Below, piece by piece: positions 4,313-53,618 of a stretch of 64,000 bases of DNA. Both the position numbers and the translations under genes were made by a program. The notes below the pieces were generated by a model. It was not told where the DNA came from. It ran no database searches and was given only the letters and a program-made list of their open reading frames with translations. Each line of letters starts with the position of its first letter. The stretch's first letter is position 1. The DNA comes from a phage, in the sequence record OZ336095.1; one strand, 5' to 3'.

Positions 4313-5413
4313 TTATTCATAATCCCTAATAACTATCCCTACAGGAAACTGTAAAGAACCCTTACGAGTCATCTTCTGGAACTGAACAGTTAAAGGTTTC
4401 CCGATAAACTCTTCAGGATGTTCAGCAAGATACTGTTTCTTCTCATGAGTAGTCTTCCATGAGACATCTACAAAGACATTAGGAAGAGTCTCTACAACGA
4501 ACTTGCCATGACCACGTTTATCGGTCTTTACACCAGTCACTTTAAACTCTTCAGTGTGCATCTTCTTGTGCTTAATCAAGAAGTATGAACGGTGACCACA
4601 CTCGTAGAAAGATTCTTCAGAGATTGAGCGGTACATTGCACCTTCAAACTTAGCTTCAACCCACTTATCATGAGCTTCATCAAACTCTTCCCAAGAATTT
4701 ACACGGATAGTCTGCACAGGAACAACTCTACAGGTATCCCCAAGCTCAACAATGGGTGAGTTATCAATAACTTCACGACGCTCAGGCCAAGATTTTGAAT
4801 TGTCACAGATATCATACCAGTAGAATTTAAGAAGGTGACGGTCTGGATTGTCAGCATTCTTAATCATAGATACAATATCTTCTAAGTCCCAACCATGAGC
4901 ATAAATCTCTCCATCAAAGTCTTCAACTTGCGGGTGTAATTTAAGCAACAAAAGCAAATCTGGGATTAGTTCTGCTGGAACGTTGTAAACAGTATTCTCA
5001 CGAGAATAAGCCGTGAAACTAACTGAATCATCATCTCTTGAAATTCTACAACGTACACCATCCAGTTTTGGTTGAGCATCAGCAGGGAACTTCAGATACT
5101 TTGCGTGACTAACCTTTGCAGCATCATGAGCAAGCTGTACGCCTACCTTCTCAGTATTCTGTGCAGACTCTTTTGTGTAAGCATAACCTTTACGGTCAAC
5201 TTGCTTTTTATACTTAGCAGCAACTTCAAAGAGAGCTTGCTGTTCAGCATTACGCTCATTCTTTTTACCGATGTTCTTAGGCTCTGCTGTGTACTCTTCA
5301 AACATCATCTTGCCATTTTCTTTACCATAGGTTGTGATAACTTTGTCACCTACAGCAACACATGACCAGACGTTGAAGGAACCATCTTTATTTTGTTTGT
5401 ACAGAATTGTCAT
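4313..5413 (-). CDS. ATP-dependent DNA ligase (nucleotidyltransferase superfamily)
   Basis: Motif I KLDGVR, DGEIY, EGAMYR, LIKHKK; start moved to Met 13 with GAGG RBS; about 115 aa N-terminal extension before motif I. Confidence 0.6.
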   Translation of the reverse strand: MTILYKQNKDGSFNVWSCVAVGDKVITTYGKENGKMMFEEYTAEPKNIGKKNERNAEQQALFEVAAKYKKQVDRKGYAYTKESAQNTEKVGVQLAHDAAKVSHAKYLKFPADAQPKLDGVRCRISRDDDSVSFTAYSRENTVYNVPAELIPDLLLLLKLHPQVEDFDGEIYAHGWDLEDIVSMIKNADNPDRHLLKFYWYDICDNSKSWPERREVIDNSPIVELGDTCRVVPVQTIRVNSWEEFDEAHDKWVEAKFEGAMYRSISEESFYECGHRSYFLIKHKKMHTEEFKVTGVKTDKRGHGKFVVETLPNVFVDVSWKTTHEKKQYLAEHPEEFIGKPLTVQFQKMTRKGSLQFPVGIVIRDYE

Positions 5414-5606
5414 TTTTAACCTCTGAGTGATACCAAGTGTTGCAAGCATTACATGCGTAAAGCTCTAAGTCGTTTTTATCTGGTTTATGGAAACAGTTTG
5501 ACCCACAACGACACCGGAATAACTTACCATCAACACGAAGAATGAATGTTTCAAGCTCACCATCTTCTGTAAGAACTGCGTTCTTAAATTTATTATCTTT
5601 ACCCAT
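5388..5606 (-). CDS. Small zinc-ribbon-like protein, 72 aa
   Basis: CRCGSNC...CNACN cysteine pairs. Confidence 0.4.
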   Translation of the reverse strand: MGKDNKFKNAVLTEDGELETFILRVDGKLFRCRCGSNCFHKPDKNDLELYACNACNTWYHSEVKNDNSVQTK

Positions 5607-5762
5607 TTGTACTCTCGCCTGTGTCAGATTTTATATAAGACCTCTCACTACGTCTTTTAATGAAATGTACAACGCATTTTGGTGTATTTTTTACATCTTT
5701 AATGTGCAACCTTTCGAAACTGTGTACTGTGAAGATTGCATCTGTCATTGTTTGCTTAGATT

Positions 5763-5969
5763 TCATTTTCTCTTACCACCAATTTCCACGTCGATAACTT
5801 GAACATCACCAGCAACATCAAACTTATGAATGATGCTTTCCACAGTGTAAGTCCAACCATCAATGCGAACAAGCTCACCTTCTCGTGGAACTATTGGATT
5901 GCGTTGAGCTACAGTTGTAGTGGAGTGAACAACATCATAACGATAGATATAGTTTACTAATACTTCCAT
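5763..5969 (-). CDS. Hypothetical small protein
   Basis: ORF 5763..6068 trimmed to internal Met (MEVLVNY) with GAGG RBS so it no longer overlaps the lipoprotein gene. Confidence 0.35.
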   Translation of the reverse strand: MEVLVNYIYRYDVVHSTTTVAQRNPIVPREGELVRIDGWTYTVESIIHKFDVAGDVQVIDVEIGGKRK

Positions 5970-22250: not shown

Positions 22251-22492
22251 TGACTTATGTAATTTACTCCAAAACTGGATGCCCTCAATGTGAGACTGCA
22301 AAGAATTTTGCAAAAGCTCGTGGTATTGAACATGTTGTGAGAATGTTAGGGCAGGATTATGAGCTATCAGACCTGATGGATATTGCACAGATGCCAGTTC
22401 GTCAGATGCCATTCATCATGAAAACTGATGGGCAAAACCTAAAGCCTGTTGGAACGCTACAGAATTTTATGGCAGAGGTGAATAATGCTTAA
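22250..22492 (+). CDS. Glutaredoxin / NrdH-like redoxin
   Basis: 80 aa; CPQC active site near N-terminus; between RNR genes. Confidence 0.7.
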   Translation: MTYVIYSKTGCPQCETAKNFAKARGIEHVVRMLGQDYELSDLMDIAQMPVRQMPFIMKTDGQNLKPVGTLQNFMAEVNNA

Positions 22493-22691
22493 ACGCCTTT
22501 GGGAAGGTTTGGTTGTTGATGCACCAGCTATTGTGATTGGTATGCTTATTGTTAACCTATTTACTGACTTTGAACAAGGTTCATTGTTTGGAGCTATGTT
22601 ACTATGGGTTATCTTCGAAATATTAGAGATACAGTTAGGTATCACTGAAAAACTAAGAGAACTCTTTTCGAAGTTTTCTAAAAAGATTTAA
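22485..22691 (+). CDS. Small hydrophobic protein, 68 aa
   Basis: ORF track; predicted transmembrane segments. Confidence 0.4.
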   Translation: MLKRLWEGLVVDAPAIVIGMLIVNLFTDFEQGSLFGAMLLWVIFEILEIQLGITEKLRELFSKFSKKI

Positions 22692-34062: not shown

Positions 34063-35172
34063 ATGACTACTAAAACTAAAGCACAGATTGACGCAGAAAT
34101 TTACAAACTGGTTAAAGAGGGCAAGCTGACTAAAACCGCTATTGCACAGAAATTTAACACCTCAACCCGTTCAGTCGGTCGTGCTGTAGAGCGTCATGAA
34201 GCAACCTTAAAAGGGAATAAGAAGGTGACTTCTACACCAGCTACGAAGACTTTGAAGCAAGTTGCTAAGACCTTTAAAAAGAAAGCTGACAAACCAGTTG
34301 AAAAGGTTGTTAAAGAGTCTGTACAGAAAGCTCCAGTAAATAAACTACATGAAGCTATGCAGAAAGATGACAAGATTGAGTACATGATTACTGGTGACTC
34401 TGTAATTATGACTTATGGTTCAGAGTCTGAAATTGTTGAGTCTACTCATCCGAACTATCAAGAGATTGTAGTTCATGTTGTGAAAGGTGAGTTTAAGAAA
34501 GCCTTTGAACTGATGAACATTCGTAAGTCTATCGAAAACTTCACTCAGGGTGCTATCACAATCAAAGGTGATAAGTTATTCTACGGTGCTGTTGAGATGC
34601 GTTCTACTCTGGTTGACCGTATTCTTCACATGATGAAGACTGGAGATAAAGGCTTTGAACGCCTTGTGATGTTCTTCGAAAAACTGATGGAAAACCCATC
34701 TAAAGATTCCGTAGAACAACTTTGGGGCTTCGTATCTCACCTTGATGTTGAAATTGATGAAGAAGGCTACATCATTGGTTGGAAGAAAGTCTCTACTCGT
34801 GAAGGCAAGCTGGTTGACTCCCACACCTACAGAGTACCTAATGATTTGGGTAACATTGTAGAAATGCCACGTTGGATGGTTGATAATAACCGTAACGTGA
34901 CTTGCTCTCAAGGTCTTCACGTTGGTGCTTGGGATTATGTTCGCTGCTTCTCAGGTGATACAATTCTTAAGGTTCGTGTTCATCCACGAGACGTTGTATC
35001 CGTACCAACTGATTACAACGATATGAAGATGCGTTCATCACGTTATGAAGTTGCAGCAATCGTTGATAATCAACGTAAAGTACTGAAAGCATGGGATGGT
35101 AAGACTGAAGCTTTACATGTCATCGTTGGTACTGCTGGTGAACTTATCTCTCAGCGTAAACGTGAAAGCTAA
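34063..35172 (+). CDS. rIIB: rIIB protein
   Basis: LFYGAVEMRSTLVDRIL, ENPSKDSVEQLWGFV, VHPRDVVSVPTDYNDMKMRSSRYEV match T4 rIIB blocks; directly downstream of rIIA. Confidence 0.75.
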   Translation: MTTKTKAQIDAEIYKLVKEGKLTKTAIAQKFNTSTRSVGRAVERHEATLKGNKKVTSTPATKTLKQVAKTFKKKADKPVEKVVKESVQKAPVNKLHEAMQKDDKIEYMITGDSVIMTYGSESEIVESTHPNYQEIVVHVVKGEFKKAFELMNIRKSIENFTQGAITIKGDKLFYGAVEMRSTLVDRILHMMKTGDKGFERLVMFFEKLMENPSKDSVEQLWGFVSHLDVEIDEEGYIIGWKKVSTREGKLVDSHTYRVPNDLGNIVEMPRWMVDNNRNVTCSQGLHVGAWDYVRCFSGDTILKVRVHPRDVVSVPTDYNDMKMRSSRYEVAAIVDNQRKVLKAWDGKTEALHVIVGTAGELISQRKRES

Positions 35173-35189
35173 TAAGTAATTTCTTAAAA

Positions 35190-35211
35190 GGCTGCTTCGG
35201 CGGCCTTTTTT
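35190..35211 (+). terminator. Rho-independent terminator
   Basis: GC-rich hairpin around ttcg loop followed by TTTTTT. Confidence 0.55.
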
Positions 35212-35272
35212 ATTTGTATTTTGTGCAGAGTGCTGTATAATTGTTGTCACGATAAACTAAACAGGAGAACCA

Positions 35273-35821
35273 ATGAAGAAATTGATTCTAGGTTTGTGCT
35301 TAATGTTTACAGCACACTTATCTTATGCAGTTGACTGCCCAGAGCTATCAATTAGCCAAAAAGTAAACATGTTAAAAGCTTACCAGTATGGTGAGAATAA
35401 CATGGGTAAAGGTTGGGGTATAACTCTAGCTGCTATAGCCTTACAAGAGTCAGAGTTAGGTCTGAAGGTAGAGAATAAAAAGACACATGATTATGGTATT
35501 TTCCAGAATCACTTGAAGACTGTTGTAAAGCGTAACAAAATTAGCCCTAATGTGGCTAAAAAGAAACTCTTAAAAGATTTTGACTATGCTGCGAAGGAAA
35601 CGCACAAAGAACTTGAGTTTTGGACAAAGGTGCATGGTCAGCCAAAGTCAAAGAAGACTTTACAAAAAGTTTTAGCATCATATAATGCTGGGTATTCGTA
35701 CAGAATCCCTAAAGCTAAGAAGTATTCTCAAGATGTCTATAACAACATGAAAGTTATTGCTCAATGTGAATTTGCAACAAACATTTCTAAGGTAAATCAT
35801 GAAAAAATTAAGAAAGTCTGA
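35273..35821 (+). CDS. Secreted lytic transglycosylase-like (SLT domain) protein
   Basis: Signal peptide MKKLILGLCLMFTAHLSYA; AIALQESELG, DYGIFQ, YNAGYSY resemble SLT ES...GLMQ...AYNAG motifs. Confidence 0.5.
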   Translation: MKKLILGLCLMFTAHLSYAVDCPELSISQKVNMLKAYQYGENNMGKGWGITLAAIALQESELGLKVENKKTHDYGIFQNHLKTVVKRNKISPNVAKKKLLKDFDYAAKETHKELEFWTKVHGQPKSKKTLQKVLASYNAGYSYRIPKAKKYSQDVYNNMKVIAQCEFATNISKVNHEKIKKV

Positions 35822-36494
35822 TGAAGTACTGTGTCATGCTTATGACTTACATCCTCATGAGTTAGGTCTTGATTCCTGTGTATGGACTCCAGAACAGTGT
35901 AGGGATTTTGAAGACACCGCAAGAGAGGTTGTATGTTCACTCGAAGAGTTCCACACATCAGAGCCAATTGTTAATGTTGTAGATAAAGAGACTGGACAAG
36001 CTATAGGTGTAAGTCGTGATAGTTTAGTCATAGTCAATAAAGACCTTGTAGAAAAAGGGAATCTCATCTTAGCAGATATTGATGGTGTTCTTACAAATTT
36101 TAATCACGAAGATTGTTCAACGGAATTGACTGACGGTTCATTCTCGCAGTATACCAATCTTCTTGATTCTGTAAGAGCAAAGCCGACGTATGTTTTCAAT
36201 ATCATTGATGCAATTGCTAATCATGCTGCTGTTGGACTCTTGACAGCGAGAGGTGAATCTCAGAGAATACCTACTGAGATGTTTTTAAGGCATAACACAG
36301 AGCATGATTACATGCTTTTTATGCGTGGTTTTGGGACTAACTCTATAAGTGCAGAAAGTTTGAAAGTAAGGATGATTCAGTCTTGCATTCTTCCTTACTT
36401 TAATATAGTATGCTTTATAGAAGACACAGAGAAGAATGTTCAGAAGGTAAACAGAATACTTCCACACATCAAAACCATGTTAGTTAAACATTGA
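35799..36494 (+). CDS. Hypothetical protein, 231 aa
   Basis: ORF track. Confidence 0.45.
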   Translation: MKKLRKSDEVLCHAYDLHPHELGLDSCVWTPEQCRDFEDTAREVVCSLEEFHTSEPIVNVVDKETGQAIGVSRDSLVIVNKDLVEKGNLILADIDGVLTNFNHEDCSTELTDGSFSQYTNLLDSVRAKPTYVFNIIDAIANHAAVGLLTARGESQRIPTEMFLRHNTEHDYMLFMRGFGTNSISAESLKVRMIQSCILPYFNIVCFIEDTEKNVQKVNRILPHIKTMLVKH

Positions 36495-36504
36495 GAGAAA
36501 ACTT

Positions 36505-36969
36505 ATGAACAATATCATTACGGTAGCACTGGACGTTACGGCAAACAAATCTGAAGTAGTTCGTAAAATGATTCAAGGTAACTTTGAAGGTAAAATTTTC
36601 CGTGCTGTTAATGTAAAAGCTGATGGTAGCATTCGTGAATATCGTGCATTGTTGAACGTTAAGAAGCACGTAAAAGGTGTTGGTTCAACGACTGCACACA
36701 AAGAAAACCTGATGACTATCTATGATATGGGTAAGGCTTCAGAGTTAGGTGCTGAAGGTATCGTTAAAGAAGGTGCTCCGTATCGCTCTTTCAATCTGGA
36801 AACTACTCTTATGCTTTCCTTTACAAGTGGTTCTAAAACAATCACTTATCTCTTTACTGATGCTGCAACGGTATCTGCTATTAAGGATAGCACTGTCAAA
36901 GCTGGCGTAGTTGCTGCTGCAAAAGCTTCTTCGATGGCTGCGAATATCCTTGCTAAAGTCCTCGGTTAA
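36505..36969 (+). CDS. Hypothetical protein, 154 aa
   Basis: ORF track; followed by strong terminator. Confidence 0.5.
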   Translation: MNNIITVALDVTANKSEVVRKMIQGNFEGKIFRAVNVKADGSIREYRALLNVKKHVKGVGSTTAHKENLMTIYDMGKASELGAEGIVKEGAPYRSFNLETTLMLSFTSGSKTITYLFTDAATVSAIKDSTVKAGVVAAAKASSMAANILAKVLG

Positions 36970-36981
36970 GGTTAAGATACA

Positions 36982-37002
36982 GGCTCCTTCGGGAGCCTTT
37001 TT
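36982..37002 (+). terminator. Rho-independent terminator
   Basis: ggctcc-ttcg-ggagcc hairpin followed by TTTTT. Confidence 0.65.
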
Positions 37003-37021
37003 CATTTCAGGAGATTGTTAA

Positions 37022-37369
37022 ATGACATTTAAAGAGTTTTGTCAAGCTACTTTCATAATTGTTTTCTTAGTTGGGGCAGGTGTCTGGGGAGGATACTCTT
37101 ACAGAGACTACCAAGTTGCTGAAACTGAGCTAAATAATGAGAAACTAATAAGTGTTGCCAAAGATGCTTATCAGGAAGGTTTAGCCACACTCAGCACCAA
37201 TTACAAAAATGATTTGAAAGATGTGCTTGCTAAGAATAAGCACACAAAAGAGGTACTAACATATGAAAAAACTAAGCCAGAGTTTTATAATGTTTGTGTT
37301 ACTGATAATTATGTCAGGGTGTTCAACGAACAAAGTGAACAGTACATTCAAAAACTCCCAAGTAAGTGA
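37022..37369 (+). CDS. Candidate i-spanin (N-terminal transmembrane protein)
   Basis: 115 aa; N-terminal TM FIIVFLVGAGVWGG; overlaps a lipoprotein gene in another frame. Confidence 0.4.
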   Translation: MTFKEFCQATFIIVFLVGAGVWGGYSYRDYQVAETELNNEKLISVAKDAYQEGLATLSTNYKNDLKDVLAKNKHTKEVLTYEKTKPEFYNVCVTDNYVRVFNEQSEQYIQKLPSK

Positions 37370-37532
37370 GAGTGATAAGTACACTCAAGAAGATTCAAGA
37401 TTCACTATCAAAGGTAATACTGGTAGTGATGTGGCAGCAGCCCTTGAGTTCTATCGTGATGGATTTTACCAGTGCACAATCAAAGCTAATAACCTTATTG
37501 ATATGATTTTATTAGGAAATAAACAGCAATGA
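37263..37532 (+). CDS. Candidate o-spanin (lipoprotein), overlapped with upstream gene
   Basis: 89 aa; signal peptide with lipobox-like IIMSGC; GAGG RBS; start embedded in 3' end of 37022..37369. Confidence 0.4.
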   Translation: MKKLSQSFIMFVLLIIMSGCSTNKVNSTFKNSQVSESDKYTQEDSRFTIKGNTGSDVAAALEFYRDGFYQCTIKANNLIDMILLGNKQQ

Positions 37533-37798
37533 CAGAGAATGAAGATACTTTTTACGTAGAAGGGTACTTACTGTTACCGCGACCAAAAGAAACTTATATG
37601 CGAATTGACTTCATACCAACCATTATGGATAATGTGATGTGTCATATCTTTATGCAGGGTGTCACAGCACAGCTTAAGCATGTTGGTAAAGACTGCAAAA
37701 TAAAGGTTGACACTCATCCAGAAATCAAAGAGAATCACTACACATGGTTCTTACCAGACTCTAAAGAAATCTTAGCAGTTCTCAAAACGAGGAAGTAA
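37529..37798 (+). CDS. Hypothetical protein, 89 aa
   Basis: ORF track. Confidence 0.45.
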   Translation: MTENEDTFYVEGYLLLPRPKETYMRIDFIPTIMDNVMCHIFMQGVTAQLKHVGKDCKIKVDTHPEIKENHYTWFLPDSKEILAVLKTRK

Positions 37799-37800
37799 CT

Positions 37801-38127
37801 ATGCAGATTAATGGAAGAGACTTTGTAGCCGTTTACTACGAGAAAGGTAAAGAGGTTGGTGTAGCACAAGTATCTTATGGCAATGGTAAGTGGCTATATG
37901 GGACAATCGCAGTAGTAGGAACAAGAAGTGATACAAAAACTTTTAAAGATTGTGTTGACCTTCTTGAAGAATCCATACACAATCATTGGTGTCTGATATG
38001 GATGACTGACAACGAAGTGATAGAACGCTTCAAAAAGATTGGTATCAACATTGATAGCATTGAACATGTTGATTTATATGAGCTAACTGAGAAGGTAAAC
38101 TATGAAAGTAATACTAGCCAGAGATAA
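37801..38127 (+). CDS. Hypothetical protein, 108 aa
   Basis: ORF track. Confidence 0.45.
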   Translation: MQINGRDFVAVYYEKGKEVGVAQVSYGNGKWLYGTIAVVGTRSDTKTFKDCVDLLEESIHNHWCLIWMTDNEVIERFKKIGINIDSIEHVDLYELTEKVNYESNTSQR

Positions 38128-38329
38128 AAAGACACGGAAACTTATCAGGTCAGCGGTGTTCATTGGACGAAATAAGGTCATACCATTTGCAGCAAATGAT
38201 GTGATAGCTTACCGGAAGAACTTAGTATTCACTGACTGTTTACGTGGCTTCATCTCTGAACCATTAGAACACTTTAAAAGTCGTTGTGGTAAAGGCATCA
38301 TCATTCAAGAGGTAATTATTCATGGCTGA
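38102..38329 (+). CDS. Hypothetical protein, 75 aa
   Basis: ORF track. Confidence 0.4.
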   Translation: MKVILARDKKTRKLIRSAVFIGRNKVIPFAANDVIAYRKNLVFTDCLRGFISEPLEHFKSRCGKGIIIQEVIIHG

Positions 38330-38522
38330 TTTCTGCAAAGACTGTGCTATCGAAATGTTTGGACGTGATACAGGTGATTTAAAAGGTCTTATCACTGAAG
38401 ATGACTTTAAAGCTGGCTATGCAATGCCAGTAATCTGTGAAGGTTGTGGGTGCATCTGGGTAGACCACGAAGGGCAACGTGTAAAACCTTCAGAAGATAA
38501 AGAATCTTGGGAGAGATGTTAA
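38322..38522 (+). CDS. Small Cys-containing protein, 66 aa
   Basis: ORF track; CKDC...CEGCGC. Confidence 0.4.
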   Translation: MADFCKDCAIEMFGRDTGDLKGLITEDDFKAGYAMPVICEGCGCIWVDHEGQRVKPSEDKESWERC

Positions 38523-39308
38523 ATGGGTATTGTAAAAATCATCAAAGGTGATATCTTTGACGCATTTGATAAAGGTAAGTTTGACATCATTGGTCACGGT
38601 TGCAACTGTATGAACTTCATGGGTGCAGGTATTGCAGCAACTATTTCCAAGCGTTATCCAAAAGTGTATGATACTGACACAGAAGTTTACCTGTTTGCAG
38701 GTGGCATTCGTCACAAACCCTGTGAAAATTTACTAGGTAATTTCTCTGTAGCACGTTTAAAACAAGGCCGTATAGCTAACCTTTACACCCAACTTCATAC
38801 TGGTAAAGATGCCCGATACAGTGCTTTAGAGTCATCTTTGAAACAGCTTAACAGATACTGTGAAGTTAACCAGTTGAAGAAAGTTGGTCTACCTATGATT
38901 GGTGCAGGTATCGGTGGGCTTGACCCTCAAGCTGTCACAGTTATCATTAATCAGGTGATGAAGAGTGTAGATGTTTATCTGTATGTCTATGAAGCAAAAA
39001 TGTATAATGAGTTACACTCAGGTTGGAAAAACTACTGTGAACCAGAATACTTTGCAGGTGTAGTTGTGTTCACAGATAACGAAGTTACCCTCTTCAGACG
39101 AAGAAAAGGTAAGATACATCAAAGTAACCCTCCGGTTGAAAAGATGTCTCTGAGTAACGCTCTAGTTACCCACCTGTCGAAGAGCAATCACAGGATTGCA
39201 GTAACATTTGGCAGTGATGCAGATACTTATATCTATGCAAGAACTGATGAGGATATCGAGACAGTTTTCTCTTCACCAGAAGTTACCTTCTTAGACGCAA
39301 AGAACTAA
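38523..39308 (+). CDS. Macro domain protein (ADP-ribose binding/processing) with C-terminal extension
   Basis: IKGDIFDAFDKGKFDIIGHGCNCMNFMGAGIAATI and GLPMIGAGIGGL resemble macro-domain Gly-rich diphosphate-binding loops. Confidence 0.55.
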   Translation: MGIVKIIKGDIFDAFDKGKFDIIGHGCNCMNFMGAGIAATISKRYPKVYDTDTEVYLFAGGIRHKPCENLLGNFSVARLKQGRIANLYTQLHTGKDARYSALESSLKQLNRYCEVNQLKKVGLPMIGAGIGGLDPQAVTVIINQVMKSVDVYLYVYEAKMYNELHSGWKNYCEPEYFAGVVVFTDNEVTLFRRRKGKIHQSNPPVEKMSLSNALVTHLSKSNHRIAVTFGSDADTYIYARTDEDIETVFSSPEVTFLDAKN

Positions 39309-39374
39309 GAAACTCTGTAGAATATTCACAATAGACCAAGCCTTTCTTATCTGGTAAATTTTTCAGGTAAGGAG

Positions 39375-39560
39375 GGCTTTTTCATTTCAGAATTGTGCAG
39401 GTAGATTTCTATAGAGAAACCTGTAGAGAAAATATTGAACTCCAAAGAGAAAATTCATTTTCAAACTGTGCAGATAATCTCCAAAGAGCTTTTTCATTTT
39501 CAAAACGTGCAGACCCCGCTCAGGTCGGGCAAGGAAAATCATTTTAGATTTGTGCAGGTA
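39375..39560. repeat. Degenerate tandem repeats (four units with core cattttcaaa.ygtgcag) followed by a polypyrimidine tract
   Basis: Units at about 39378, 39451, 39488, 39535; ccctctccccctcttactccccctctcccc at 39585..39615. Confidence 0.6.
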
Positions 39561-41283: not shown

Positions 41284-41580
41284 ATGAAATTATCAAATCA
41301 AGTGCGTGAAAATCTGAGCAAATTACTCAACAAAATTGATTTCATTGAAACATCAAGGAATAGCCATGATGTTATGGAATGGTTACACGGCAAAATAAAA
41401 GGTCGTCGTGTAGTGATTTGCTTATGGAACAGTTGCAGGGAGTATAAAAAACCTGTATTACAAGTCAATATCTATGATGATACTTTTAAAAGTCCAGTAA
41501 AGTCTAAAAGCGATTTATTAGAATCTTATGAGATATCTGTAAATGGCAAAGTATCACGTAATGAGGTAACACCATGTTAA
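41284..41580 (+). CDS. Hypothetical protein (cassette ORF), 98 aa
   Basis: ORF track. Confidence 0.5.
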   Translation: MKLSNQVRENLSKLLNKIDFIETSRNSHDVMEWLHGKIKGRRVVICLWNSCREYKKPVLQVNIYDDTFKSPVKSKSDLLESYEISVNGKVSRNEVTPC

Positions 41581-41906
41581 TGACTGGTATCACTGCAATC
41601 ATTGCCATTTTCGCGCTATATAAGGCATATAAAGCCTATAATCTAGCAAATAAGGCAATCACACAGCAGGTTAGTAATAACCTTGTAGAAAGCTTTCTAG
41701 GGCGCCTCAGTGATGAGCAAATAAAGCGGCTAGAGATGAGCTTCAGATATAAAGCGAAAACCTATCAGATAAGTGACATCTTTAAAGATGATTTTCAGTT
41801 AGTTGATGATTATAATTCTCTGATAAATGCTTTAAACGTCAGTGACTTGAAAGACTATCACGCTGTAATTGTTCAAGAATTGAGCAAACGAAAACAAAAC
41901 TGTTGA
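41574..41906 (+). CDS. Hypothetical protein with N-terminal transmembrane helix, 110 aa
   Basis: MLMTGITAIIAIFALYKAY; start overlaps previous stop. Confidence 0.45.
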   Translation: MLMTGITAIIAIFALYKAYKAYNLANKAITQQVSNNLVESFLGRLSDEQIKRLEMSFRYKAKTYQISDIFKDDFQLVDDYNSLINALNVSDLKDYHAVIVQELSKRKQNC

Positions 41907-53153: not shown

Positions 53154-53618
53154 TTACTTTGGATATACACTGTCAAGATAAATGTCAGCTTCCATTCTAC
53201 GTCTGTTTTTCAGGCCGTTTGAAGTGACCTTCTTACCTTTTACTGTAACCTTGTTCCACCACTGCATAGCTTCTGCACAACCGACCTTATTACCAGCATT
53301 GTGGCGCTTGATAAATGTAGAGTCCTGCATAGCTGTGATACCAATGTTGTATGTTTCACTTACAAGTGCATCAAACTCATTCTGAGAAGTTGGAACCTTG
53401 ATGGCTTTGTTCACTGCTGTAACGAACTTTTCAACATCTGCAAGAAGATACTGTTCAGCTTGTTCAGCGGTAATCTTCATACCCATCTTAACAGGCTTCC
53501 CACCAATACGAATTGTCCCATACCCAATTGTGGGGATTCCAGCAGAATCTTCGTAAGACTCAAGCTTAAGACCTTCAAAGAACTTAATAGCTTCTAAACC
53601 TTTTCTTGAGAGTTGCAT
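53154..53618 (-). CDS. Lysozyme (GH24, T4 e / lambda R-like endolysin)
   Basis: N-terminal LEAIKFFEGLKLESYEDSAGIPTIGYGT matches the E...D...TIGYG catalytic region; GGGGAGG RBS; 154 aa. Confidence 0.75.
   Translation of the reverse strand: MQLSRKGLEAIKFFEGLKLESYEDSAGIPTIGYGTIRIGGKPVKMGMKITAEQAEQYLLADVEKFVTAVNKAIKVPTSQNEFDALVSETYNIGITAMQDSTFIKRHNAGNKVGCAEAMQWWNKVTVKGKKVTSNGLKNRRRMEADIYLDSVYPK

What the first reader, a model, noticed from the sequence alone, without database searches (positions are those of the whole stretch)
37022..37532. Overlapping membrane-protein / lipoprotein gene pair resembling a spanin unit
Seen in sequence: a 115-aa protein with an N-terminal transmembrane helix overlaps, in a different frame, a gene for an 89-aa lipoprotein (lipobox-like IIMSGC) with its own GAGG RBS. 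Established knowledge: i-spanin/o-spanin pairs typically have this overlapped architecture. The candidate o-spanin is not proline-rich and the recognised lysozyme is 16 kb away, so this is tentative.
Basis: partly seen in the sequence, partly recalled or inferred. Interest (0 to 1): 0.45.

Follow-up and report, generated by a model that had tools for sequence, protein, structure and literature searches.

The report
Felix O1-type overlapped spanin gene pair
These two overlapping genes are the already catalogued inner-membrane and outer-membrane "spanin" pair of Felix O1-like phages, which most likely breaks the host's outer membrane at the last step of lysis; the finding is correct but ordinary.

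Summary
A 115-aa ORF (37022..37369) with one N-terminal transmembrane helix overlaps by 107 nt, in another frame, an 89-aa ORF (37263..37532). The second ORF has a Shine-Dalgarno site and a lipoprotein signal (KK, hydrophobic core, lipobox MSG|C, Ser at +2).

The window is a Felixounavirus genome, 95-97% identical to many Felix O1-like phages. The supplement of Kongari et al. 2018 lists exactly this pair for Felix O1: 115 aa and 89 aa, "overlapped", 107-nt overlap, same RBS. Several GenBank records annotate it as i-spanin/o-spanin.

I found homologous pairs with the same layout in Mooglevirus, Suspvirus, Kolesnikvirus and phiEco32-like podophages. Two small Peduoviridae phages also carry them, directly after a holin and an endolysin. 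The lipobox Cys and one periplasmic Cys in each protein are invariant. Substitution patterns show that both frames are under selection.

The pair is unrelated in sequence to lambda Rz/Rz1 and to T4 PseT.3/PseT.2. The o-spanin has no proline, and no coiled coil is predicted in the i-spanin. The 16-kb distance to the lysozyme is normal for Felix O1-like phages.

A practical point is that many records start the o-spanin at an internal ATG and so lose the signal peptide.

The parts
36981..37005 (+). Intrinsic-terminator-like hairpin (AGGCTCC-TTCG-GGAGCCT followed by TTTTTCATTTC), immediately upstream of the i-spanin RBS
   Evidence: Found by the terminator scan. A terminator is annotated at the equivalent place in Mijalis and phiEa21-4.
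37009..37013 (+). Shine-Dalgarno AGGAG of the i-spanin gene, 8 nt before the ATG
   Evidence: Read from the sequence. The same string 'tttttcatttcAGGAGattgttaa' is listed for Felix01 in the Kongari 2018 supplement.
37022..37369 (+). i-spanin gene (115 aa). It has an N-terminal transmembrane helix at about residues 7-24 (nt 37040..37093) and a periplasmic domain of about 88 aa with the invariant residues F88, C92, F101 and N102.
   Evidence: ORF list and hydropathy. It matches phrog_1152 'Rz-like spanin' at 8e-42. Invariant residues come from alignment A2. The substitution pattern supports coding. The sequence matches the Felix01 entry in Kongari 2018.
37250..37253 (+). Shine-Dalgarno GAGG of the o-spanin gene, 9 nt before the ATG, inside the i-spanin gene
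   Evidence: Read from the sequence. An RBS is annotated at the same place in Mijalis.
37263..37532 (+). o-spanin gene (89 aa). The lipoprotein signal peptide is residues 1-19 (nt 37263..37319) and the lipobox Cys20 codon is at 37320..37322. The mature protein of 70 aa has Ser at +2, a predicted disordered linker and a C-terminal helical hairpin carrying the invariant Cys71.
   Evidence: ORF list and lipobox check. It matches phrog_4180 at 1.7e-50 and phrog_456 'Rz-like spanin' at 7.9e-5. Invariant residues come from alignment A3. The AlphaFold2 model gives the secondary structure. Kongari 2018 lists an 89-aa Felix01 o-spanin.
37263..37369 (+). 107-nt region coding in both frames (C-terminus of the i-spanin and signal peptide plus N-terminus of the o-spanin)
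   Evidence: The substitution rate against Mijalis and SUSP1 is 0.09-0.10 per site here, compared with 0.20-0.26 in the singly coding parts.
53154..53618 (-). Endolysin (Phage_lysozyme family), the unlinked partner for the peptidoglycan step of lysis. It is not part of the finding's coordinates.
   Evidence: Pfam PF00959 at 2.8e-40 and phrog_7 endolysin at 1.8e-55.

Best explanation
The two genes encode a two-component spanin of the overlapped architecture.

Shown by sequence: the 115-aa protein has a single N-terminal transmembrane helix, and the 89-aa protein carries a lipoprotein signal with lipobox Cys20 and Ser at +2.

Inferred from established spanin and Lol-pathway biology:
- The i-spanin sits in the inner membrane as a type II protein, with about 88 mostly helical residues in the periplasm.
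- The o-spanin is exported, lipidated at Cys20, cleaved by signal peptidase II and sorted to the inner leaflet of the outer membrane.
- The C-terminal domains of the two proteins bind each other across the periplasm. In the i-spanin this is the conserved E-K-x-K-P-x-F-x-N-x-C-x-[ST]-[DE]-x-Y-x-x-F-N segment. In the o-spanin it is the conserved L-E-[FWY]-[YW]-R-D-x-[YF]-x-x-C-x-x-x-x-N-x-L-I helical hairpin.
- The single invariant periplasmic Cys in each protein forms homodimer disulfides.
- Once the unlinked lysozyme (53154..53618) has destroyed the peptidoglycan mesh, the complexes are free to move and disrupt the outer membrane, probably by fusing it with the inner membrane. This completes lysis.
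For: 1. The anatomy is as described: transmembrane helix, lipobox, Ser at +2, own RBS and 107-nt overlap.
2. The pair matches the catalogued Felix O1 overlapped spanin pair: same lengths, same overlap, same RBS and 2 amino-acid differences in the i-spanin (main text).
3. The i-spanin matches phrog_1152 'Rz-like spanin' at 8e-42. The o-spanin weakly matches phrog_456 'Rz-like spanin' at 7.9e-5.
4. Both genes are co-conserved with the same overlapped layout in Mooglevirus, Suspvirus, Kolesnikvirus, Yersinia phage P778, the phiEco32-like podophages KBNP1711 and ES17, and the Peduoviridae phages YenM_324 and SI7. The lipobox Cys with Ser at +2, a second Cys in the o-spanin and one periplasmic Cys in the i-spanin are invariant.
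5. In YenM_324 and SI7 the homologous pair directly follows a holin (phrog_175) and an endolysin (phrog_1768), which is a canonical lysis cassette.
6. Both frames are under purifying selection. Substitutions concentrate at third codon positions in each singly coding part, and the rate halves in the overlap.
7. Felix O1-like phages are reported to scatter their lysis genes.
Against: No experiment on this family was found in the searched library. There is no Pfam, NCBIfam or PDB match, and no detectable similarity to the tested lambda or T4 spanins.

The mature o-spanin has no proline. Kongari's tables record no predicted coiled coil in the Felix01 i-spanin. Both features matter for the lambda mechanism.

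The flanking charges around the transmembrane helix give only a weak positive-inside signal, so the N-in topology is inferred. The AlphaFold2 models have low confidence, with pLDDT 60.6 and 64.5. The genes lie in an early-looking region (rIIA/rIIB, polynucleotide kinase) just after a terminator, so late expression has not been shown.
Confidence: 0.9

Rival explanations
1. The lipoprotein is a superinfection-exclusion or receptor-blocking lipoprotein of the T5 Llp or Cor kind, and the overlapping membrane protein has an unrelated function. The spanin-like layout would then be coincidental.
For: The genes sit in an early-looking region next to rIIA/rIIB and are not next to the endolysin. PHROGs files the lipoprotein family (phrog_4180, phrog_2425) under unknown function. 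The protein is not proline-rich.
Against: The two genes are always found together and overlapped across four phage lineages. In Peduoviridae the homologous pair follows the holin and endolysin directly. The partner matches a spanin family at 8e-42. The periplasmic Cys residues are conserved in both proteins, as in other two-component spanins.
Confidence: 0.04
2. Only the 115-aa gene is real. The overlapping 89-aa ORF, or its first 16 codons, is not translated. The product would then be absent, or it would be the 73-aa protein starting at the internal ATG 37311 (MSGC...) that many records annotate.
For: JK55 and ekra annotate a 73-aa o-spanin starting at the equivalent of 37311. The largest protein cluster is the 73-aa form, P0008, with 303 member sequences. 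Some records annotate no gene here at all.
Against: The ATG at 37311 has no Shine-Dalgarno site, whereas 37263 has GAGG 9 nt upstream. A protein starting at MSGC would have no signal peptide and so could not be a lipoprotein. The N-terminal KK/KR plus hydrophobic segment is conserved in homologues of only 26-35% identity. Third-position bias downstream and the reduced substitution rate in the overlap indicate translation in this frame from within the i-spanin gene. Curated annotations (Mijalis, SUSP1, Kongari 2018) use the 89-aa form. Kongari et al. describe this gene-caller bias explicitly.
Confidence: 0.04

Closest known systems
Felix O1 overlapped two-component spanin (Felix01 p014 i-spanin plus overlapping o-spanin; Kongari et al. 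2018, BMC Bioinformatics 19:326; group Felix01/FO1a/UAB_phi87)
   Same: It matches in every checked respect: a 115-aa i-spanin differing at 2 residues, an 89-aa o-spanin, a 107-nt overlap, the same RBS string and the same position after the polynucleotide kinase gene.
   Different: There is no material difference. The window is another Felixounavirus isolate, 95-97% identical in DNA to many records.
phiEco32-like (Gordonclarkvirinae), Kolesnikvirus (phiEa21-4) and small Peduoviridae (SI7, YenM_324) spanin pairs
   Same: They belong to the same protein families: all match phrog_1152 for the i-spanin and phrog_4180/phrog_2425 for the o-spanin. They share the overlapped layout and the invariant Cys residues and C-terminal motifs.
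   Different: Identity is only 26-35%. The overlaps are 116-137 nt. Some have a second periplasmic Cys in the o-spanin. In the Peduoviridae the pair lies in a holin-endolysin-spanin cassette rather than on its own.
Lambda Rz/Rz1, the experimentally characterised paradigm
   Same: It has the same two parts, a type II inner-membrane protein and an outer-membrane lipoprotein encoded in another frame of the same DNA. It also has periplasmic Cys residues available for homodimer disulfides. The presumed role is the same, outer-membrane disruption after murein degradation.
   Different: Neither protein shows Pfam-detectable similarity to any family, Rz and Rz1 included. The architecture is overlapped, not embedded. 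The o-spanin has no proline-rich region (0 Pro) and is predicted to have a helical hairpin instead of being unstructured. The i-spanin is shorter, 115 aa against 153 aa, and has no predicted coiled coil.
T4 PseT.3/PseT.2 spanins
   Same: The sizes are similar (117 aa and 99 aa as read from the RefSeq T4 record). The o-spanin is not proline-rich and has predicted secondary structure including a C-terminal helix. The genes are unlinked to the holin and endolysin and lie next to a polynucleotide kinase gene.
   Different: BLASTP finds no similarity beyond the signal peptide, and the PHROG families differ (739/812 against 1152/4180). T4's architecture is separated, not overlapped. T4 PseT.3 has no periplasmic Cys and PseT.2 has two, whereas here each protein has one.

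Membership tests
Two-component spanin, overlapped architecture (as defined by Summer 2007 and Kongari 2018) | The i-spanin is a small protein with a single N-terminal transmembrane domain, and the rest of the protein is periplasmic | tested here: met
   There is one hydrophobic segment at residues ~7-24 and no other. The N-terminal segment is hydrophobic in all 10 aligned homologues. Topology is inferred, not shown.
Two-component spanin, overlapped architecture (as defined by Summer 2007 and Kongari 2018) | The o-spanin has a lipoprotein signal peptide with a lipobox and Cys, and no inner-membrane retention residue (Asp) at +2 | tested here: met
   The signal is MKKLSQSFIMFVLLIIMSG|C followed by S, and it matches a PROSITE-like pattern. 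Cys20 and Ser21 are invariant in homologues of 26-35% identity. Actual lipidation cannot be tested here.
Two-component spanin, overlapped architecture (as defined by Summer 2007 and Kongari 2018) | The o-spanin gene starts inside the i-spanin gene in another frame and ends beyond it | tested here: met
   The CDSs are 37022..37369 and 37263..37532, with a 107-nt overlap in different frames. The same layout occurs in 9 related loci.
Two-component spanin, overlapped architecture (as defined by Summer 2007 and Kongari 2018) | At least one periplasmic Cys is available for homotypic intermolecular disulfide bonds | tested here: met
   Cys92 of the i-spanin and Cys71 of the o-spanin are invariant. 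Disulfide formation itself cannot be tested here.
Two-component spanin, overlapped architecture (as defined by Summer 2007 and Kongari 2018) | The genes are associated with lysis genes | tested here: met
   The pair is not linked to lysis genes in this genome; the lysozyme is 15.6 kb away on the other strand. Homologous pairs directly follow a holin and an endolysin in YenM_324 and SI7. Scattered lysis genes are reported as typical of Felix O1-like phages.
Two-component spanin, overlapped architecture (as defined by Summer 2007 and Kongari 2018) | The pair is required for outer-membrane disruption, or complements lambda Rz-am Rz1-am | not testable with these tools
   No experimental report on the Felix O1 family was found in the searched library.
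Felix O1 spanin group (Kongari 2018 supplement) | Sequence identity and the same gene geometry as Felix01 NC_005282.1 5330-5678 and 5571-5841 | tested here: met
   The 115-aa protein differs at 2 positions. The o-spanin length (89 aa), the overlap (107 nt) and the RBS are identical.
Lambda Rz/Rz1 family | Sequence similarity to the Rz and Rz1 families | tested here: not met
   Neither protein has a Pfam match above noise.
Lambda Rz/Rz1 family | A proline-rich region in the o-spanin and two coiled-coil helices in the i-spanin | tested here: not met
   The mature o-spanin has no proline. Kongari's table lists no coiled-coil segment for the Felix01 i-spanin. The low-confidence AlphaFold2 model shows several short helices.
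T4 PseT.3/PseT.2 family | Sequence similarity to PseT.3 and PseT.2 | tested here: not met
   BLASTP gives E = 18 for the i-spanins. For the o-spanins only the signal peptides align, at E = 0.033. The T4 proteins fall in phrog_739 and phrog_812, not in 1152 and 4180.

The most novel reading that the evidence does not exclude
This spanin family has no proline-rich region in the o-spanin and no predicted coiled coil in the i-spanin. It has one invariant Cys per subunit, and the o-spanin is predicted to have a helical hairpin. It spans Ounavirinae, phiEco32-like podophages and small P2-like phages. It could therefore be a structurally and mechanistically distinct solution to outer-membrane disruption rather than a diverged Rz/Rz1. 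None of this was tested here or, as far as I found, elsewhere.
Probability: 0.15. Interest if true: 0.4.

Novelty: already known. Interest (0 to 1): 0.1.

Why it matters
The finding adds little. It confirms that the window carries the standard Felix O1-type spanin pair, which completes the lysis gene set together with the unlinked lysozyme.

Its practical value is for annotation. Many public records and gene callers start the o-spanin at an internal ATG (73-aa or 68-aa forms without a signal peptide) or miss it entirely. PHROGs v4 labels its families (phrog_4180, phrog_2425) as "unknown function". Automated pipelines therefore under-report this spanin in phages that are candidates for therapy.

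The family has not been tested experimentally. It differs from the lambda paradigm in the two features thought to matter for membrane fusion, so it would be a reasonable subject for comparative spanin work.

Tried and rejected
- **Pfam, NCBIfam and PDB sequence searches** of both proteins gave nothing above noise. The NCBIfam hits to the o-spanin were below each model's cut-off, and most covered only about its first 50 residues, which include the signal peptide.
- **T4 spanins.** I considered that the pair might be diverged T4 PseT.3/PseT.2, because it lies next to a polynucleotide kinase gene as in T4. I rejected this at the sequence level.
- **Exhaustive HMMER search** of 1.84 billion representatives with a shallow o-spanin profile gave only 5 hits. 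The protein is too short for that database size. A word-indexed profile search with distant members was more useful, giving 58 hits including prophage copies.
- **Structure prediction.** The permitted alignments gave low-confidence models (pLDDT 60.6 and 64.5). I used only their secondary structure and ran no fold search, because matches from such models would be meaningless.
- **Promoter.** The sigma-70 consensus scan found no promoter-like site in the 23 nt between the terminator and the i-spanin start. How and when the pair is expressed remains open.
- **Holin.** I looked for a holin among small membrane ORFs. The candidates at 22485..22691 and 41574..41906 match only PHROGs of unknown function, and I did not pursue them.

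Full report
**1. Observation**

The ORF list shows 37022..37369 (+, 115 aa) and 37263..37532 (+, 89 aa). They lie in different frames and share 107 nt.

The 115-aa protein has one hydrophobic segment at residues ~7-24, CQATFIIVFLVGAGVWGG. The remaining ~88 residues are polar, with Cys92 as the only Cys outside that hydrophobic segment.

The 89-aa protein begins MKKLSQSFIMFVLLIIMSG|CS. This is a basic n-region, a hydrophobic core, a lipobox ending in Cys20, and Ser at +2, so there is no Asp retention signal.

GAGG lies 9 nt before the ATG at 37263, which is the first ATG after an in-frame TAA. AGGAG lies 8 nt before the ATG at 37022.

The mature lipoprotein has no proline and has one further Cys, C71.

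A lipoprotein-signal pattern finds 2 ATG-ORFs of at least 45 aa in all six frames of the window. Twenty shuffles give a mean of 0.35. The other hit, at 817, is unconvincing.

**2. What the window is**

The stretch 35000..39500 is 95-97% identical to more than 200 Felix O1-like myophages of the genus Felixounavirus. Some records annotate the two genes as i-spanin and o-spanin (JK55, ekra). Many others call them hypothetical.

**3. Prior knowledge**

Kongari et al. 2018 (PMC6139136) list Felix01/FO1a/UAB_phi87 among the overlapped two-component spanins. Their supplementary tables give these details for Felix01 (NC_005282.1):

| Feature | Value in the supplement |
|---|---|
| Architecture | 'ovl' (overlapped) |
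| i-spanin | 5330-5678, 115 aa, differs from the window's protein at 2 residues |
| o-spanin | 5571-5841, 89 aa |
| Overlap | 107 nt |
| RBS string | identical to the window's |
| Predicted coiled coils in the i-spanin | none |

The genome announcement for the Felix O1-like phage Moogle states that the endolysin, the two spanins and a putative holin are scattered around the genome rather than grouped in a cassette. The finding is therefore an already catalogued feature. The distance to the lysozyme is normal for this group.

**4. Independent evidence gathered here**

*Family assignment.* The i-spanin matches phrog_1152 'Rz-like spanin' at 8e-42. The o-spanin matches phrog_4180 (1.7e-50) and phrog_2425 (1.6e-9), both labelled unknown function, and weakly matches phrog_456 'Rz-like spanin' at 7.9e-5.

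*Distribution.* tblastn finds the o-spanin in 311 phage records and the i-spanin in 403.

*Conserved layout.* I fetched nine relatives and found the same arrangement in each: an ORF with an N-terminal transmembrane helix overlapped by a lipoprotein ORF. The relatives were:
- Mijalis (Mooglevirus)
- SUSP1 (Suspvirus)
- phiEa21-4 and SPARTY (Kolesnikvirus)
- Yersinia phage P778
- the podophages KBNP1711 and ES17 (Gordonclarkvirinae)
- the Peduoviridae phages YenM_324 and SI7

*Invariant residues.* At 26-35% identity the i-spanin keeps G24, L65, E82, F88, C92, F101 and N102. The o-spanin keeps L4, C20, S21, G54, C71, N76 and L78. All ten members of each alignment hit the same PHROGs.

*Lysis-cassette context.* In YenM_324 and SI7 the pair directly follows a holin (phrog_175) and an endolysin (phrog_1768). 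This is the strongest contextual argument for a role in lysis.

*Selection on both frames.* Substitutions against Mijalis and SUSP1, which are 79-80% identical, concentrate at third codon positions in each singly coding part:

| Comparison | i-only part, codon positions 1/2/3 | o-only part, codon positions 1/2/3 |
|---|---|---|
| Mijalis | 14/9/35 | 9/5/27 |
| SUSP1 | 14/11/23 | 9/7/26 |

The substitution rate falls from 0.20-0.26 to 0.09-0.10 per site in the 107-nt overlap, as expected if both frames are translated.

*Prophage copies.* A profile search returned 58 relatives, some on contigs named as bacterial genomes (Enterobacter, Salmonella, E. coli, Buttiauxella), probably prophage copies. 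Every full-length call carries [LMT]-[ST]-[GAS]-C-S-T.

**5. Start codon of the o-spanin**

JK55 and ekra annotate a 73-aa product starting at the internal ATG, equivalent to 37311 (MSGC...). The largest protein cluster is this 73-aa form, with 303 members, and 68-aa forms also exist. Such products would lack the signal peptide.

The ATG at 37311 has no Shine-Dalgarno sequence, and the N-terminal signal is conserved in distant homologues. Curated annotations (Mijalis, SUSP1, Kongari 2018) use 89 aa. Kongari et al. describe this gene-caller bias explicitly.

**6. Mechanism**

The sequence shows the signals for inner-membrane anchoring of one protein and lipoprotein export of the other.

The rest is inferred from lambda and T4 work summarised. 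The two proteins would form a periplasm-spanning complex through their conserved C-terminal regions. Homodimer disulfides through C92 and C71 would stabilise it. The murein mesh would hold it inactive until the endolysin acts, and it would then disrupt the outer membrane, probably by fusing the two membranes.

The AlphaFold2 models have low confidence (pLDDT 60.6 and 64.5), so I used only their secondary structure. The i-spanin periplasmic domain is helical. The o-spanin has a disordered stretch at residues 18-53, followed by a helical hairpin at 54-75 and 78-87. That hairpin carries the best-scoring region of the model and the conserved motif.

**7. Comparison with known families**

The pair works like a two-component spanin and meets every sequence-level criterion of that class.

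It is not a member of the lambda Rz/Rz1 family. There is no Pfam hit, no proline-rich region, no predicted coiled coil, and the architecture is overlapped rather than embedded.

It is not a member of the T4 PseT.3/PseT.2 family either. BLASTP gives E = 18 for the i-spanins and aligns only the signal peptides of the o-spanins, the PHROGs differ, and the T4 genes are separated rather than overlapped. It does share T4's proline-poor, partly structured o-spanin, and its position next to a polynucleotide kinase gene.

No relative has a solved structure detectable by sequence.

**8. Rivals**

An exclusion lipoprotein paired with an unrelated membrane protein is unlikely. The two genes are strictly co-conserved, and the Peduoviridae homologues sit in lysis cassettes.

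A non-translated or N-terminally shorter second ORF is unlikely. The substitution pattern, the RBS and the conserved signal peptide all argue against it.

**9. Verdict**

The feature is already known from bioinformatic cataloguing and has not been tested experimentally. Interest is low.

What remains open is whether this proline-free family without predicted coiled coils uses the same fusion mechanism as lambda. The evidence here does not address that.

Noticed in passing
window 37311 (internal ATG of the o-spanin); L001 2810..3031; L002 2812..3033; L005 1573..1761; L006 1814..1939; L009 1799..1972: Many public records start the o-spanin at an internal codon, which removes the signal peptide or lipobox, or they annotate only a fragment. 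Examples are JK55 and ekra (73 aa from MSGC), YenM_324 (start after the lipobox) and KBNP1711 and ES17 (short 'hypothetical' fragments). SPARTY annotates nothing there. PHROGs v4 labels the o-spanin families phrog_4180 and phrog_2425 as unknown function.
   Followed up: yes
window 35273..35821 (+): This 182-aa protein has an N-terminal signal-like hydrophobic segment and a weak SLT lytic-transglycosylase match (Pfam PF01464, E = 9e-4, below the cut-off; ES and SYNAG motifs). Phage ekra annotates it as 'putative lysin', and it falls in phrog_600 (unknown function). It lies 1.2 kb upstream of the spanins and could be a second, secreted muralytic enzyme.
   Followed up: partly
window 36981..37005 (+): A strong terminator-like hairpin with a GC-rich stem, a TTCG loop and a T-run sits 16 nt before the i-spanin start. 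A terminator is annotated at the same place in Mijalis and phiEa21-4. No sigma-70-like promoter lies between it and the gene, so how and when the spanins are expressed is unclear.
   Followed up: partly
window 35799..36494 (+): This 231-aa protein is annotated 'polynucleotide kinase' (phrog_3970, 2e-134) but has no Pfam match. By eye it shows a HAD-type DIDGV motif and no obvious P-loop, so it may be only the 3'-phosphatase half. In T4 too, the spanin genes lie beside the polynucleotide kinase gene pseT, although the spanin proteins are not similar in sequence.
   Followed up: no
window 38523..39308 (+): This is a macro-domain protein (Pfam PF01661, 5.3e-7). The equivalent gene is annotated 'putative phosphatase' in ekra, and a similar-sized gene just after the spanin pair in phiEa21-4 is annotated 'Tk.4'.
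   Followed up: no
phage collection record GU169904.1 (Staphylococcus phage SA1), 125695..126039: A record named as a Staphylococcus phage contains a 100% identical copy of the Felix O1-type i-spanin. Two Campylobacter-named records also match the region. These are probably chimeric or contaminated records.
   Followed up: no
window 22485..22691 (+) and 41574..41906 (+): These are small membrane proteins of unknown function. The first is 68 aa with two hydrophobic segments (phrog_4532). The second is 110 aa with one N-terminal hydrophobic segment (phrog_4375). Either could be the unidentified holin of this phage.
   Followed up: partly
protein P0039 (136 aa, 933-bp ENA contig): This predicted protein fuses the first ~37 residues of the i-spanin to the polynucleotide-kinase-like protein from about its residue 5. 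It is probably an assembly chimera or a deletion variant.
   Followed up: no
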